Assembly: GCA_964603405.1 (NCBI GenBank) | Contig: CAZRUK010000004.1 | Coordinates: forward strand, 1 to 27,197 | DNA: 27,197 nucleotides | Reading direction: 5' to 3' | From: an uncultured Candidatus Saccharibacteria bacterium | GTDB lineage: Bacteria > Patescibacteriota > Minisyncoccia > Phycocordibacterales > DSPV01 | In this document: one piece after another, positions 12,645-17,127 of the stretch | Layout of the letters: the number at the start of each line of letters is the position of its first letter | Numbering within the stretch: position 1 is the stretch's first letter | Made by a program: the position numbers and the translations under genes | The notes under the pieces: generated by a model | What the model saw: the letters and a program-made list of their open reading frames with translations, nothing else | The model's database searches: none | What the model was told of the DNA's origin: nothing

Positions 12645-14321
12645 ATGATTGAATTTGACGAGGACAAGCAAAAACTTCATCTCTCCGAAATTCATAAAAG
12701 AGAGGAGGAGGAATTCGCTCATATAGCCGCCGACAAAAGAGGCTTGAGTTATATAAATCTAGCAAGCTCTCCCGTGAACTTGGATGCCCTGAGAGTTATC
12801 CCCGAGGATAAAGCCAAAAGCGCCGGGGTGGTGGCTTTCAACATTCTCGACAAAAAACTCGGGGTAGCTATAACCAACCCCGACAGTAAAGAAGCTCTTG
12901 AAATTATAAAAGATTTGGGCAACCAAGGTTATAAAATAACAACTTTCCTGGTCTCTAAAAGAAGTTTTGAAAAAACTTTGGAAAAATATAAGGAGCTGTC
13001 TTTAAATAAGGGCACCAAAGCCGGGTCGTTTCAATTATCAAGCGAGGAAGTCGCCGCTTATCTAGGGAAAATAAAAGACGTTACCGATGTCAAAAAATTA
13101 ATTGAAGAAATTCTATCCGACAAAAAAGCTTATAAAACTACTAAAGTTGCCGAAATAGTTCTAGCTGGAGCTTTGGCTGTAGGAGCTTCAGATGTTCACA
13201 TCGAGCCGGAGCAAGCGTATGTCAGATTGCGTTACCGCTTGGATGGCGTGCTGAACGATATTTATCATTTGGAAATTCAGGTTTACAACTATGTTTTATC
13301 CAGACTGAAACTGATTTCAGGTATGAAATTAAACGTTCATCTGGAAGCTCAAGACGGCCGGTTCAGTATAAAGACAAACGAGGCCGATATAGAAGTCCGT
13401 TCCTCAATCATTCCGGGCGCTTATGGAGAATCTATGGTGATGAGAATCCTTGATCCGAAATCAATTCAGGTTCCTATGGAAGAACTTGGCATAGAACCTC
13501 ACCTGCAAAAAGTTCTGGAACGAGAAATATCCAAACCTAACGGCATGCTTTTGAATACAGGACCGACAGGTTCCGGCAAAACAACCACTCTTTACGCTTT
13601 TCTTCGCAAAGTACATACACCTGACACAAAAATCATCACAGTTGAAGACCCTGTTGAGTACCACTTGCCAGGAATAGTCCAAACGCAGACGAACGCAGAG
13701 GAAGGTTACACTTTCCTTTCAGGGCTTCGCGCCATCCTTCGGCAAGATCCGGATATTATAATGATCGGCGAAATTAGAGATCACGAAACTGCGGAAATCG
13801 CCACCAATGCCGCCTTAACAGGCCACTTGGTGTTCTCTACCCTGCACACAAACAACGCCGCCGGCACATTCCCAAGACTTTTTGACCTGGGTGTAAATCC
13901 AAAAATTGTCACCTCGGCTATAAACGCCGCCATGGCTCAAAGACTTGTGAGAAAACTTTGCAAAAAATGCAAAAAGGAAGTGGCTTTGAGCGGGGTTGAG
14001 AAAAAAGAAATTGAAGAAATAATTAAAAATGTTTCTATAGAAGAATATCGCGATTTGCCGACCGAAAAAATTTGGGCGGCTGGCGAAGGCTGCGAAGCTT
14101 GTAATCATACCGGCTATAAGGGACGAACCGGAATATATGAAGCGATTCTTGCCGATGAGGAAATCGGTAAGGTGGTTTTAACTAATCCAAATGAAAAAGA
14201 AATAAGTGCCGTGGCCAGAAAACAGGGACTCCTTAACATGAAAGAGGACGGCATTGTGAAAATTTTGAAGGGTATTACCTCCATGGACGAACTGCAGAGA
14301 GTGATCGATTTGGAAGATTAA
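12645..14321 (+). CDS. Type IV pilus / type II secretion assembly ATPase (PilB/GspE family)
   Basis: Walker A GPTGSGKTTT, Asp box TVEDPVE, LRQDPDIIMIGEIRD, His box STLHTN, CKKC...CEAC and YKGRTGIYE. Confidence 0.93.
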   Translation: MIEFDEDKQKLHLSEIHKREEEEFAHIAADKRGLSYINLASSPVNLDALRVIPEDKAKSAGVVAFNILDKKLGVAITNPDSKEALEIIKDLGNQGYKITTFLVSKRSFEKTLEKYKELSLNKGTKAGSFQLSSEEVAAYLGKIKDVTDVKKLIEEILSDKKAYKTTKVAEIVLAGALAVGASDVHIEPEQAYVRLRYRLDGVLNDIYHLEIQVYNYVLSRLKLISGMKLNVHLEAQDGRFSIKTNEADIEVRSSIIPGAYGESMVMRILDPKSIQVPMEELGIEPHLQKVLEREISKPNGMLLNTGPTGSGKTTTLYAFLRKVHTPDTKIITVEDPVEYHLPGIVQTQTNAEEGYTFLSGLRAILRQDPDIIMIGEIRDHETAEIATNAALTGHLVFSTLHTNNAAGTFPRLFDLGVNPKIVTSAINAAMAQRLVRKLCKKCKKEVALSGVEKKEIEEIIKNVSIEEYRDLPTEKIWAAGEGCEACNHTGYKGRTGIYEAILADEEIGKVVLTNPNEKEISAVARKQGLLNMKEDGIVKILKGITSMDELQRVIDLED

Positions 14322-14333
14322 GGAAAGAAAACC

Positions 14334-14371
14334 AAAACAGCCTTCCGTCAAAATTGACGGAAGGCTGTTTT
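14334..14371. terminator. Strong bidirectional terminator
   Basis: Perfect 18-bp arms aaaacagccttccgtcaa / ttgacggaaggctgtttt. Confidence 0.85.
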
Positions 14372-14438
14372 CTTTGAACAGTGAATAACCTTATTGCTAA
14401 AAATTTTTCGGGGACTATAGTGAATTCAGACACTAACC

Positions 14439-14600
14439 AGTCCAGGACATTAACCTCCAAGCAAAACTTCTGGTAACGAGGTACTAGAAGCGAGGCATAT
14501 CACCTGAGGAGTAAACCAGAAAGCGCGGAGCCACCAGATTATCCTTAGCGAAATGTCAAAAGGCGCGAGCCTTATTGCTTAGAGGTTGTTATCCTGGACT
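14439..14600 (-). ncRNA. Candidate structured ncRNA (162-nt long hairpin; 6S RNA is one possibility)
   Basis: The ends pair over ~26 bp (agtccagga/tcctggact, aacctct-aagcaa/ttgctt-ggaggtt), with G:U pairs only in the minus orientation. An upstream consensus promoter and a downstream terminator frame it. Confidence 0.55.
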
Positions 14601-14697
14601 TTTTATTACCTGACTTTAAAGGAACACGAAATCAGACTGGATTTTTCCCCAAAATAGAAGGAGAATAAATATATCGCACTTAAGTACGAACATCAAG

Positions 14698-14726
14698 AGT
14701 CTAGCATAAATTATTTAAAGTGTCAA
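14698..14726 (-). promoter_or_regulatory. Consensus sigma70 promoter firing into the pilB-ruvB intergenic region
   Basis: TTGACA-17 nt-TAGACT with an extended -10 TG; overlaps the ruvB start. Confidence 0.75.
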
Positions 14727-15739
14727 GTAAAACCAAACCAACCAAAAACAACACCAAGGAGGACACCTTTCTTGATCAAACTCTGAGGCCAACCGAGTGG
14801 GATCAATACATAGGCCAGAAAAATATCAAAGAAAACTTGAAAATCCTCCTCAAGGCGGCCAAAGAACGGGGCCACCCGCCCGAACATCTTATGTTTTACG
14901 GACCGCCGGGCCTCGGCAAAACCACTCTTGCCTATCTTGTCGCGAGCGAGATTGGCGGGCAAATGAAAGTTACTTCTGGACCAACGATAGAAAAGGTTGG
15001 CGATTTAGCTTCTGTGCTGACAAATTTATCCCCGGGCGACATCCTTTTTATTGATGAAATTCATCGTCTAAACAAAACCATCGAGGAAGTTCTCTACCCC
15101 GCCATGGAATCGGGATCGCTTAATATAATTCTCGGCAAAGGACCATCAGCTCGAACCATCCAGTTGGAATTGCCACCTTTCACTTTAGTGGCCGCCACCA
15201 CCAGAATCGCAATGGTCAGCTCGCCTTTGCGCAGTCGTTTTTCCGGCGGCGTCTTCCGATTAGATTTTTATAGTCACGAAGATATAGAAAAAATCATAGA
15301 ACGCTCGGCAAAAATTCTGGGTGTAGATTTGCCTGAGGAAGCGACGAAGGAAATTTCCAAACGAAGTCGATTCACTCCAAGAACCGCGAATTATCTCCTG
15401 AAACGCTGTCGCGACTACGCTCAAATAAAAAAGACCGGCTTGGATAAAAAGACCGCTATAGAAGCACTGGCGCTTATTGGTGTTGACGATATGGGGCTTT
15501 TGCCTTCGGACAGACAAATGCTTGAAGTTATAATAGAAAAATTCGGCGGGGGTCCTGTTGGTCTCGGCACTATTTCTGCAGCCCTATCCGAGGATGAGGC
15601 CACCCTCGAGGAATATAATGAACCATACCTTATGCAAATCGGGTTTATCGACAGAACACCGCGTGGCAGAACTGTTACGGAACATGGCTATAAACACTTG
15701 TCGAAAAAACCTAAACCCTCGCAGAAAAAACTTATTTAA
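14720..15739 (+). CDS. ruvB: Holliday junction branch migration helicase RuvB
   Basis: LRP..WDQYIGQ, GPPGLGKTTLA, LFIDEIHRL, FTLVAATTR, SPLRSRF and RFTPRTAN. Confidence 0.98.
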   Translation: MSSKTKPTKNNTKEDTFLDQTLRPTEWDQYIGQKNIKENLKILLKAAKERGHPPEHLMFYGPPGLGKTTLAYLVASEIGGQMKVTSGPTIEKVGDLASVLTNLSPGDILFIDEIHRLNKTIEEVLYPAMESGSLNIILGKGPSARTIQLELPPFTLVAATTRIAMVSSPLRSRFSGGVFRLDFYSHEDIEKIIERSAKILGVDLPEEATKEISKRSRFTPRTANYLLKRCRDYAQIKKTGLDKKTAIEALALIGVDDMGLLPSDRQMLEVIIEKFGGGPVGLGTISAALSEDEATLEEYNEPYLMQIGFIDRTPRGRTVTEHGYKHLSKKPKPSQKKLI

Positions 15740-16106: not shown

Positions 16107-16634
16107 ATGTCTGGACATAATAAATGGTGCCAAATAAAAAGACAGAAGGAAAAAACTGACGCCAAAAAAAGCCAGACTTTTTCGAAAATGGCCAAGATGA
16201 TTAGTGTTGAGGCCAAATTGGCGGGCGGCAATCGCGATGCGCCCGGCCTTAAGTCAGCCATCGAAAAAGCCAAAGCGGCCAATGTGCCGAACGATAATAT
16301 CGAAAGAGCTATTAAAAAGGCTTCCGAGCCGGGGGCTGGCATGGAAACAATTACCTACGAGGCTTACGGGCCGGGGGGTGTAGCGATGATTATCGAATGT
16401 TTGACCAACAACAGAAACAAAGCGGCCCAAGAAGTAAAATTCATTCTTTCCAAGTATGGCACCGGTCTCGGCGGCATCGGGAGTGTTACTTGGGCTTTCG
16501 AAAAAAATCACAGCGGCTGGGCTCCTAAAACTACCATACCTCTTGGAAACATCGATTTGGAAAATCTAGAGAAACTCGTTGATGAGCTTGAAGCAAACGA
16601 GGAAGTGCAGGAAATTTACACAAATGCAGAATAG
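16107..16634 (+). CDS. yebC: YebC/PmpR-family protein, shortened (175 aa)
   Basis: MSGHNKW, ANVPNDNIERAIKK, YEAYGPGGVA..IECLTNNRN and EEVQEIYTN. Confidence 0.93.
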   Translation: MSGHNKWCQIKRQKEKTDAKKSQTFSKMAKMISVEAKLAGGNRDAPGLKSAIEKAKAANVPNDNIERAIKKASEPGAGMETITYEAYGPGGVAMIIECLTNNRNKAAQEVKFILSKYGTGLGGIGSVTWAFEKNHSGWAPKTTIPLGNIDLENLEKLVDELEANEEVQEIYTNAE

Positions 16635-17127
16635 AGGTTCGCGATTAAGGGTTTTGGCTATCGATCCTGGATTTGCCAGAATCGGCGTGGCGGTTCTGGA
16701 GAAAGATAGAACCGGCGAGAAACTTTTATTTTCGTGCTGCCTGTCAACGGATAAGGAATCGGAAAAATCAGACCGTCTTGCTATTATCGCAAATTTTATA
16801 GAAGAAAAAACCAACCAATTTAAACCGAACGCTCTGGCCATAGAAGACCTTTTCTTTTCAAAAAATCAAAAAACCGCCCTCGGGGTAGCGGAAGCGCGAG
16901 GCGTGGTGCTTGCCGAGGCCTCAAAAAATAATTTGAAGGTTTTTCAATACAAACCAAGAGAAATAAAAATTGCCGTGACAGGCTACGGCGCAAGCGACAA
17001 AAAACAGGTTACCGAGATGGTGAAAAAGCTTCTAAAAATGGGGAATGAAAAAAAACTGGATGATGAGTACGACGCCATCGCCATCGGCCTAACACATCTG
17101 GCCTGTGTTGGTCAGACAAACATCTAA
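16624..17127 (+). CDS. ruvC: Crossover junction endodeoxyribonuclease RuvC
   Basis: VLAIDPG, LAIEDLFF, AEARGV, TGYGASDKKQV and DDEYDAIAIG. Start moved to the ATG at 16624. Confidence 0.96.
   Translation: MQNRGSRLRVLAIDPGFARIGVAVLEKDRTGEKLLFSCCLSTDKESEKSDRLAIIANFIEEKTNQFKPNALAIEDLFFSKNQKTALGVAEARGVVLAEASKNNLKVFQYKPREIKIAVTGYGASDKKQVTEMVKKLLKMGNEKKLDDEYDAIAIGLTHLACVGQTNI

What the first reader, a model, noticed from the sequence alone, without database searches (positions are those of the whole stretch)
14334..14726. Unannotated ncRNA locus between pilB and ruvB (possible 6S-like RNA)
Seen: a consensus minus-strand promoter (14698-14726) drives a ~350-nt region with no substantial ORF that ends at a strong terminator. 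Its core (14439-14600) closes with a ~26-bp helix and has inner stems (tctggt/accaga, cctt/aagg). G:U pairs in the closing helix and in two leader hairpins (tcgtac/gtgcga, ttctcc/ggggaa) all favour the minus strand. Established: 6S RNA is a ~160-200-nt irregular hairpin mimicking an open promoter. Inference: a divergent 6S or a new RNA class; the internal loop is asymmetric and not a textbook 6S bubble.
Basis: partly seen in the sequence, partly recalled or inferred. Interest (0 to 1): 0.62.

Follow-up and report, generated by a model that had tools for sequence, protein, structure and literature searches.

The report
New four-armed small RNA beside ruvB
The gap between pilB and ruvB holds a real gene, with its own promoter, for a ~170-nt four-armed RNA; it is conserved across a whole class of ultra-small (Paceibacteria/CPR) bacteria, matches no catalogued RNA family, and is not their 6S RNA, because true 6S RNAs sit elsewhere in the same genomes.

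Summary
On the minus strand a near-consensus promoter (14698-14726) leads into a highly structured region with no real ORF, ending at a strong terminator (14334-14371).

The functional unit is the 168-nt core (14436-14603). It has a 25-bp closing stem P1 and three hairpins (P2, P3, P4) that form a four-way junction. Covariance models built here find one copy per genome in 128 of 151 genomes of the same order, in other orders of the class, and in more than 118 named Paceibacteria/Parcubacteria species. Covariation is strong, the strand is clear, and 131 of 132 loci carry the same TTGACA-17-TGnTAnnnT promoter. No Rfam family matches.

It is not 6S RNA:
- The "bubble" is filled by covarying hairpins.
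- Canonical 6S RNAs (GGGAGUCC...CACCCACCUGG, rod plus bubble) lie elsewhere in seven genomes that also carry this RNA, one of them in the window's own order.

SRP RNA, Y RNA, a MITE, a riboswitch and a plus-strand ruvB leader were also rejected. One genome keeps an intact copy far from ruvB, so the RNA probably acts in trans, most likely as a protein-binding RNA. Its partner is unknown.

This scan found the same RNA before in seven other genomes. The new points here are the coexistence with 6S, the relocated copy, and the overlap of ruvB's start codon with the RNA's -35 box.

The parts
14721..14726 (-). -35 hexamer TTGACA of the RNA gene's promoter. Its reverse complement overlaps the GTG start codon of ruvB (14720-14722).
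   Evidence: TTGACA is present in 125 of 131 homologous loci. In 75 of 124 loci ruvB's start codon is the reverse complement of the base triplet at the end of this box.
14698..14706 (-). Extended -10 element TGcTAGACT, 17 nt after the -35 box.
   Evidence: The spacer is 17 nt in 122 of 131 loci and the TG extension is present in 129 of 131.
14604..14691 (-). Lineage-specific 5' leader, from the inferred start site near 14691 to the core. It includes the hairpin 14674-14689.
   Evidence: The start site is inferred from the -10 position and was not mapped. The first hairpin is kept, with changes, in six close relatives. Leader length varies from 3 to 162 nt across the family, so the leader is not part of the conserved unit.
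14436..14603 (-). Conserved core RNA: a four-way junction formed by P1 to P4.
   Evidence: Model R1 scores 154.9 bits and R2 scores 133.9 bits. On 35 sequences 91.4% of cells are paired, 49 of 62 pairs show changes on both sides, and 0 of 500 shuffles reach this. Folded alone, 124 of 139 sequences give a closing stem plus three branches.
14574..14599 (-). P1, 5' strand. It pairs with 14440-14465. The inner 13 bp (AACCUCUAAGCAA here) are nearly invariant within the order.
   Evidence: P1 was recovered de novo from a MAFFT alignment of 26 diverse sequences, with compensatory changes at nearly every pair.
14440..14465 (-). P1, 3' strand.
14560..14573 (-). P2: a short hairpin of 5-6 bp, capped by a tetraloop in most relatives.
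   Evidence: 5 of 6 pairs change on both sides and 94.9% of cells are paired.
14496..14555 (-). P3: a long irregular arm. It holds the conserved AGGA...CUGGU / CUGG...UCCU module, a tandem U.G/G.U step and a variable tip.
   Evidence: Two further base pairs at its foot were found.
14466..14491 (-). P4: a 10-bp A/U-rich hairpin (CUUCUAGUA...UACCAGAAG) that joins P1 with no unpaired base between them.
   Evidence: 8 of 10 pairs change on both sides and 95.9% of cells are paired.
14372..14435 (-). Lineage-specific 3' tail. On the plus strand it carries a weak promoter-like site, TTGCTA-16-TATAGT (14394-14421), pointing at ruvB.
   Evidence: Across 131 loci such plus-strand sites are no better than in shuffled sequence, so this is tentative.
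14324..14371 (-). Intrinsic terminator: a 17-bp stem (14334-14371) plus a U tract. It also terminates the convergent pilB.
   Evidence: Terminator-like hairpins lie within 130 nt of the core in 56 of 131 loci, and 24 of them begin within 7 nt of the core's end.
12645..14321 (+). pilB-type T2SS/T4P assembly ATPase, convergent with the RNA gene.
   Evidence: Pfam T2SSE, E = 9e-116. pilB lies downstream and convergent in 55 of 57 loci.
14720..15739 (+). ruvB, divergent from the RNA gene. Its start codon lies inside the RNA's -35 region.
   Evidence: Pfam RuvB_N, RuvB_C and AAA_lid_4. ruvB lies upstream and divergent in 55 of 57 loci. The overlap is shown.

Best explanation
This is a stand-alone gene for a previously uncatalogued structured non-coding RNA of the class Paceibacteria (Parcubacteria, CPR).

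Shown here:
- It is transcribed from the minus strand by a near-consensus sigma-70-type promoter and ends at an intrinsic terminator.
- The conserved unit is a ~170-nt four-way junction: a 25-bp closing stem P1, a short hairpin P2, a long irregular arm P3 with an AGGA/UCCU and tandem G.U module, and a 10-bp hairpin P4.
- It occurs once per genome.
- It is a different RNA from the lineage's 6S RNA.

Inferred:
- It acts in trans as an abundant, stable protein-binding RNA (an RNP scaffold or decoy). The sequence-conserved duplex segments in P1, P3 and P4 would be the recognition surfaces. The leader and tail seen in this window would be dispensable, and possibly trimmed at the foot of P1.
- Its fixed place beside ruvB is largely explained by physical overlap, because its -35 box is ruvB's first codons. 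That overlap may also let the strong RNA promoter hinder ruvB's own initiation.
For: Promoter, terminator and fold in the window.

Distribution:
- Homologues in 128 of 151 genomes of the order, one locus each.
- 46 of 151 genomes in the class sample.
- More than 118 named Paceibacteria/Parcubacteria species by an exact 24-nt pattern.

Structure and strand:
- Covariation far above shuffled and slid controls.
- 124 of 139 sequences fold alone into a closing stem plus three branches.
- Strand asymmetry of about 2-3 fold in bit score, and a conserved tandem G.U step.

Transcription unit:
- Promoter in 131 of 132 loci at a variable distance of 3-162 nt from the core.
- Terminators directly after the core in many loci.

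Not a catalogued family: no Rfam hit.

Not 6S: canonical 6S RNAs coexist with it.

Trans action:
- In G131 a full-scoring copy (124 bits) with its own promoter lies on a different contig from ruvB. ruvB there has no such RNA upstream.
- Conservation sits in the helices rather than the junction loops, and P1 is 25 bp long. Both features fit protein recognition better than a ligand switch.
Against: - No transcript data: no RNA run was listed.
- No partner protein was identified.
- The trans inference rests on one relocated copy.
- The near-universal antisense position between pilB and ruvB (55 of 57 loci) could reflect a cis role.
- Some of the alignments used for covariation were fitted to the model. 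P2 and P4 were not recovered from the independent MAFFT alignment, although single-sequence folds do recover them.
Confidence: 0.5

Rival explanations
1. A cis-acting antisense or promoter-interference element. The strong RNA promoter overlaps ruvB's start and any leaderless ruvB promoter, and the transcript converges on pilB. Its job would then be to throttle ruvB, pilB or both, by promoter occlusion, polymerase collision or sense-antisense pairing. The fold would serve mainly to stabilise the RNA.
For: - The RNA is antisense between pilB and ruvB in 55 of 57 loci.
- The core's 3' end lies 0-50 nt from the pilB stop in many loci.
- ruvB's start codon is the reverse complement of the -35 box in 75 of 124 loci.
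- Only 56 of 131 loci have a recognisable terminator before pilB.
Against: - In G131 the RNA is fully conserved away from both genes.
- An intricate four-way junction with covariation, and invariant helix sequences kept across a whole class, is more than a stabilising fold needs.
- In this window a strong terminator separates the RNA from pilB.
- A plus-strand ruvB promoter beyond the core is not supported above shuffles.
Confidence: 0.2
2. A second, non-canonical RNA-polymerase-binding RNA, like 6S or Ms1 in function though not in family. P1 and P3 would mimic the downstream and upstream duplexes of a promoter, and P2 and P4 would melt or dock on the enzyme.
For: - Size, a single copy, its own very strong sigma-70 promoter, a long closing stem and an irregular apical arm all recall 6S.
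- The definition of 6S is taken from PMC8876501.
- Some bacteria carry two RNAP-binding RNAs. Examples are 6S-1 and 6S-2 (PMC8876501) and Ms1, listed (PMC9130861).
Against: - No 6S covariance-model signal at all.
- The would-be bubble is closed by covarying 6-bp and 10-bp hairpins, leaving only a few unpaired junction bases.
- Canonical 6S is already present in the same genomes.
Confidence: 0.1
3. The functional RNA is on the plus strand, as a structured leader or intercistronic element of the pilB-ruvB mRNA.
For: pilB and ruvB share the plus strand. Most helices would also form in the reverse complement: reverse-strand model scores reach 40-65 bits.
Against: - Forward scores are 2-3 times the reverse scores.
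- The conserved tandem U.G/G.U and many other G.U pairs would become A.C mismatches on the plus strand.
- A consensus minus-strand promoter is present in 131 of 132 loci.
- ruvB in G131 lacks the element.
Confidence: 0.03
4. A highly divergent SRP RNA or Y-RNA-type RNA.
For: - No SRP RNA was detectable in five near-complete relatives.
- A long terminal stem with conserved sequence recalls Y RNAs.
Against: - Neither the Ffh M domain nor an SRP54-type GTPase was found. Loss of ffh and ffs in Parcubacteria is already published (PMC4508563).
- The RNA has no GNRA-capped helix-8 motif.
- No TROVE/Rsr protein in 151 genomes of the class.
Confidence: 0.02

Closest known systems
6S RNA (SsrS; Rfam RF00013)
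   Same: - About 170-200 nt.
- One gene per genome with its own strong housekeeping promoter and a terminator.
- The 5' and 3' ends form a long closing stem, opposite an irregular apical arm.
   Different: - No covariance-model similarity.
- The centre is a closed four-way junction with two covarying hairpins, not an open bubble.
- It lacks the lineage's 6S hallmark GGGAG(U/C)C...GGACACCCACCUGG.
- Canonical 6S genes lie elsewhere (for example downstream of ndk) in the same genomes.
Ms1 RNA of Actinobacteria (binds RNAP core)
   Same: A lineage-restricted, abundant structured RNA. It coexists with or replaces 6S and was found through conserved synteny (PMC9130861, listed).
   Different: Ms1 is about 300 nt with a different architecture, and there is no sequence or model match. 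Binding to RNA polymerase is untested here.
Bacterial Y RNA / YrlA with Rsr (Ro60)
   Same: A long terminal stem with conserved sequence, topped by a multi-branched module. Y RNAs are protein-binding RNAs that act in trans.
   Different: No TROVE-domain protein in 151 genomes of the class. The RNA has no tRNA-like T-arm motif and no Rfam match.
Orphan conserved structured RNAs found by comparative genomics (for example the raiA motif, OLE, ROOL; from my own knowledge)
   Same: Defined by covariation and wide conservation in one lineage, with no known function and a likely protein partner.
   Different: The fold, the sequence and the host lineage (CPR) all differ. None of them matched in the all-Rfam scans.

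Membership tests
6S RNA (RF00013) | Match to the family covariance model | tested here: not met
   No RF00013 hit on 14250-14800 even at E <= 10. None in 20 homologous loci at E <= 1.
6S RNA (RF00013) | Rod shape with a largely unstructured central bubble between two helical arms (PMC8876501) | tested here: not met
   Both strands between P1 and P3 form hairpins. P2 has 5 of 6 covarying pairs and P4 has 8 of 10. 124 of 139 sequences fold alone into three branches. Two extra pairs tighten the junction.
6S RNA (RF00013) | It is the lineage's 6S gene, so no other canonical 6S is present | tested here: not met
   Canonical-type 6S RNAs lie elsewhere in G320 (52.1 bits), G360, G402, G375, G331, G215 and G062. 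All of these also carry this RNA next to ruvB.
6S RNA (RF00013) | Binds sigma-70 holoenzyme and templates pRNA | not testable with these tools
   Needs biochemistry.
SRP RNA (RF00169, RF01854) | Helix-8 motif or model match, plus an Ffh partner | tested here: not met
   No model match. The Ffh M domain was found in 0 of 151 genomes of the class. E. coli Ffh finds nothing in the window's own genome or in five relatives. The loss is published (PMC4508563).
Y RNA / YrlA | Co-occurring Ro60/Rsr (TROVE) protein | tested here: not met
   PF05731 was found in 0 of 151 genomes of the class, and the control genomes rang.
MITE or other repeat element | Several copies per genome | tested here: not met
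   One copy in the window's own genome and one locus per genome in relatives.
Riboswitch or cis-acting 5' leader | A co-directional downstream gene, with conservation concentrated in junctions and a short switching P1 | tested here: not met
   The downstream gene (pilB) is convergent in 55 of 57 loci. P1 is 25 bp long, and conservation lies in the helices.
cis-encoded antisense RNA | Obligate overlap with the target gene's transcript | tested here: inconclusive
   The RNA gene's -35 box overlaps ruvB's start codon in 75 of 124 loci and the gene abuts pilB. However, G131 keeps the RNA at another locus, and no transcript ends are known.

The most novel reading that the evidence does not exclude
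The RNA is a structural mimic of a four-way (Holliday) DNA junction, in the way that 6S RNA mimics an open promoter. It has two long opposite arms of about 25 bp (P1 and P3) and two short ones (P2 and P4). Its promoter overlaps the start codon of ruvB, which encodes the junction branch-migration motor. The RNA would bind or titrate RuvA, RuvB, RuvC or another junction-recognising protein, and so tune recombination of DNA taken up through the neighbouring pilus system.
Probability: 0.05. Interest if true: 0.95.

Novelty: categorically new. Interest (0 to 1): 0.68.

Why it matters
CPR/Patescibacteria make up a large share of bacterial diversity, have tiny genomes and are almost uncultured. A ~170-nt RNA kept once per genome, behind one of the strongest possible promoters, in a whole class of them is very likely part of their core biology.

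The RNA lies outside every catalogued RNA family, so it adds a new orphan class comparable to earlier comparative-genomics discoveries. Showing that it coexists with a true 6S RNA removes the easy explanation and makes the search for its partner a defined, testable problem.

Two by-products are useful for annotation:
- Paceibacteria 6S RNAs exist but mostly score below Rfam's cut-off.
- ruvB's start codon is embedded in the RNA's -35 box.

Tried and rejected
- **All-Rfam scans.** I scanned the window at gathering threshold, the region at E <= 10 and 20 homologous loci at E <= 1. Only terminator-hairpin noise came back.
- **6S.** Rejected on structure and on coexistence with canonical 6S (see the membership tests).
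- **The weak RF00013 hit in the window's own genome (C26:3251-3464, 18.8 bits).** This is a different, strongly folded intergenic element. It is not conserved in the family and lacks the 6S hallmark.
- **SRP RNA.** Rejected: no Ffh or FtsY was found, and this loss is published.
- **Y RNA.** Rejected: no TROVE protein.
- **MITE.** Rejected: single copy.
- **Plus-strand leader.** Rejected on G.U pairs, the promoter and the G131 copy.
- **Riboswitch.** Rejected on gene orientation, the length of P1 and the pattern of conservation.
- **Pseudoknots.** A search by pairwise covariation only extended P1 and P3.
- **A conserved plus-strand ruvB promoter beyond the core.** Not above shuffles.
- **Transcript evidence.** DNA runs from sediment, groundwater and soil hold the locus. 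No RNA run was listed.
- **Other classes of the phylum.** Model R2 found nothing, and ruvB is not next to pilB there.
- **Literature.** Searches for CPR or Patescibacteria with 6S, SRP RNA or RNA motifs found no description of this RNA.
- **Caveat.** Whole-genome model searches with default filters give false negatives. G062 was missed but scores 94.5 bits. The counts of genomes carrying the RNA are therefore lower bounds.

Full report
**1. The observation**

The window is contig C4 of a 439-kb, 64%-complete genome. The finding lies between a pilB-type ATPase (12645-14321, plus strand) and ruvB (14720-15739, plus strand).

On the minus strand, one search finds:
- a promoter, TTGACA-17-TAGACT with a TG extension, at 14726-14698;
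- a 17-bp terminator hairpin at 14371-14334.

No ORF above 61 aa overlaps the region. The 367-nt transcript folds far better than shuffled sequence, z = -7.35. The description is accurate except for one inner stem.

**2. A conserved RNA gene**

A DNA search of relatives found the core in five genomes of a sister genus. All five copies lie between ruvB and pilB, and all have the same promoter.

A covariance model of the 168-nt core (R1) found one locus per genome in 128 of 151 genomes of the same order. The minus-strand orientation scored about twice the reverse orientation.

A second model from 35 sequences (R2) gave these results:
- It found the RNA in 46 of 151 genomes sampled across the class, 41 of them outside the order.
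- It found nothing in other classes of the phylum.

Apart from one record titled Planctomycetaceae, the informative titles name Patescibacteria groups: Paceibacterota, Parcubacteria, Adlerbacteria, Taylorbacteria, Zambryskibacteria, Minisyncoccia, plus many TPA records labelled Saccharibacteria. Other records are titled only "bacterium" or "uncultured bacterium".

**3. Structure**

The core is a four-way junction (window coordinates):
- P1: 25 bp, 14599-14574 paired with 14465-14440.
- P2: a short hairpin, 14560-14573.
- P3: a long irregular arm, 14496-14555. It has an AGGA/UCCU helix, a tandem U.G/G.U step and a variable tip.
- P4: a 10-bp A/U-rich hairpin, 14466-14491, joined to P1 with no unpaired base between them.

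Support for this structure:
- On 35 sequences, 91.4% of cells are paired against 38-45% when the partners are slid. 49 of 62 pairs change on both sides, and no shuffle out of 500 reaches the observed values.
- An independent MAFFT/RNAalifold run on 26 diverse sequences recovers P1 and the middle of P3, with compensatory changes at nearly every pair.
- Folded one by one, 124 of 139 sequences give a closing stem (median 25 bp) with exactly three branches.
- Pairwise covariation added one pair to P1 and two pairs to the foot of P3. It found no pseudoknot.

Conservation sits mainly in the helices. The inner 13 bp of P1 are nearly invariant within the order, yet they are replaced by other complementary sequences in distant orders such as G215.

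**4. Transcription unit**

In 131 of 132 loci a promoter lies upstream of the core:
- TTGACA in 125 loci;
- a 17-nt spacer in 122;
- a TG-extended -10 in 129.

The distance from the -10 box to the core ranges from 3 to 162 nt, with a median of 37. Terminator-like hairpins lie within 130 nt downstream in 56 of 131 loci, and many of them sit directly after the core. The core is therefore the functional unit. The 88-nt leader and 64-nt tail in this window are specific to this lineage.

**5. What it is not**

*Rfam.* No family matches at any threshold.

*RNase P RNA and tmRNA.* Both are found elsewhere in five near-complete relatives.

*SRP RNA.* The following were not found:
- SRP RNA in the five relatives;
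- the Ffh M domain, in 0 of 151 genomes of the class and 0 of 151 of the phylum sample;
- an SRP54-type GTPase;
- any match to E. coli Ffh.

This agrees with the published loss of ffh and ffs in Parcubacteria (PMC4508563). An SRP-RNA reading therefore has no protein partner.

*Y RNA.* No TROVE/Rsr protein occurs in 151 genomes of the class.

*Mobile element.* The RNA is single copy, so it is not a MITE.

**6. The 6S question**

6S RNA is defined as a ~200-nt rod with a relatively unstructured central bubble (PMC8876501). In this RNA that region is closed by covarying hairpins.

More decisively, canonical 6S RNAs exist in this phylum (22 of 151 genomes, 7 of them over Rfam's cut-off) and in this class. 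They share GGGAG(U/C)C...GCGGACACCCACCUGG and fold as a rod with a bubble. At least the G215 copy shows a recognisable promoter of its own. None of them lies near pilB or ruvB. Two of them lie just downstream of ndk.

Every one of these genomes that I could examine also carries the present RNA beside ruvB:

| Genome | Score of this RNA with R2 (bits) |
|---|---|
| G360 | 50.5 |
| G320 | 43.8 |
| G331 | 37.0 |
| G375 | 35.3 |
| G402 | 27.4 |
| G215 | 24.9, with a perfect TTGACA-17-TATAAT promoter |
| G062 (the window's own order) | 94.5 |

The two RNAs coexist, so this one is not the lineage's 6S. No 6S was found in the window's own incomplete genome.

**7. Relation to its neighbours**

In 55 of 57 loci the RNA lies antisense between pilB and ruvB. 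In 75 of 124 loci ruvB's start codon (ATG TCA AG...) is the reverse complement of the RNA's -35 region, CTTGACAT. In this window the GTG at 14720 abuts the hexamer at 14721-14726. This physical overlap is enough to explain the near-perfect synteny. It also implies that the two promoters compete if ruvB is leaderless, as an earlier first-reader note on this window suggests.

A plus-strand promoter beyond the core is not supported above shuffles.

In G131 a full-scoring copy with its own promoter lies between a LOG-like gene and a tRNA synthetase gene. ruvB is on another contig there and has no such element upstream. This points to a function that does not depend on the ruvB context.

**8. Verdict**

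The element is a real, new, class-wide structured RNA. The mechanism I think most likely is a trans-acting protein-binding RNA, at about 50%. The rivals are:
- a cis antisense or promoter-interference role, about 20%;
- a non-canonical RNAP-binding RNA, about 10%;
- a plus-strand leader, or an SRP-type or Y-type RNA, about 5% together.

RuvA, RuvB and RuvC are all encoded in the window. The speculative reading that the four-way RNA mimics a Holliday junction therefore cannot be excluded, but it rests only on shape and adjacency.

**9. Earlier work in this scan**

Seven earlier follow-up reports on other genomes describe the same RNA, and each names 6S as the closest known family. I reached the same description independently before reading them. 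This report adds:
- the coexistence with canonical 6S;
- the relocated copy in G131;
- the overlap of the -35 box with ruvB's start codon;
- the false-negative rate of filtered model searches.

Noticed in passing
L205:1541-1682 (G215), L252:1501-1658 (G095), L256:1501-1685 (G062), L206-L210: Paceibacteria have canonical-type 6S RNAs that share GGGAG(U/C)C...GCGGACACCCACCUGG, and two of them lie just downstream of ndk. Most score only 20-42 bits against RF00013, whose cut-off is 46.4, so standard annotation would miss them.
   Followed up: partly
window 14720-14726 and 75 of 124 related loci: ruvB's start codon and second codon (ATG/GTG TCA) are the reverse complement of the RNA gene's -35 hexamer. 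The two genes cannot be separated without damaging one of them, and a leaderless ruvB promoter would overlap the RNA promoter.
   Followed up: partly
whole genomes: G000, five near-complete relatives, and the class and phylum samples: No SRP RNA, no Ffh M domain, no SRP54-type GTPase and no match to E. coli Ffh. For Parcubacteria this loss is published (PMC4508563). The 0 of 151 result for the whole phylum sample goes beyond what that paper states and may partly reflect the tool's first-look filter.
   Followed up: partly
G000:C26:3251-3464, minus strand (L003:1490-1730): A ~200-nt intergenic element that folds very strongly (z = -10) and ends in a terminator. It contains the 11-mer CCUCUAAGCAA, identical to the 5' strand of P1 of the RNA studied here. 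A DNA search found no counterpart in the family. It may be another small RNA.
   Followed up: partly
L023:1501-1670 and L220 (G131): In one genome of the same order the RNA gene has moved to a locus between a LOG/lysine-decarboxylase-like gene and a class I tRNA synthetase gene. ruvB there follows another gene after only 78 nt.
   Followed up: yes
window 16107-17127: The yebC ORF is short: 175 aa, with only about 136 residues aligning to E. coli YebC, which has 247. Its end overlaps the start of ruvC (16579-17127). ruvA lies 13 kb away, at 1277-1834.
   Followed up: no
G062 (L265:19298-19469): The whole-genome covariance-model search with default filters missed a 94.5-bit copy. The counts of genomes with this RNA are therefore lower bounds.
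   Followed up: yes
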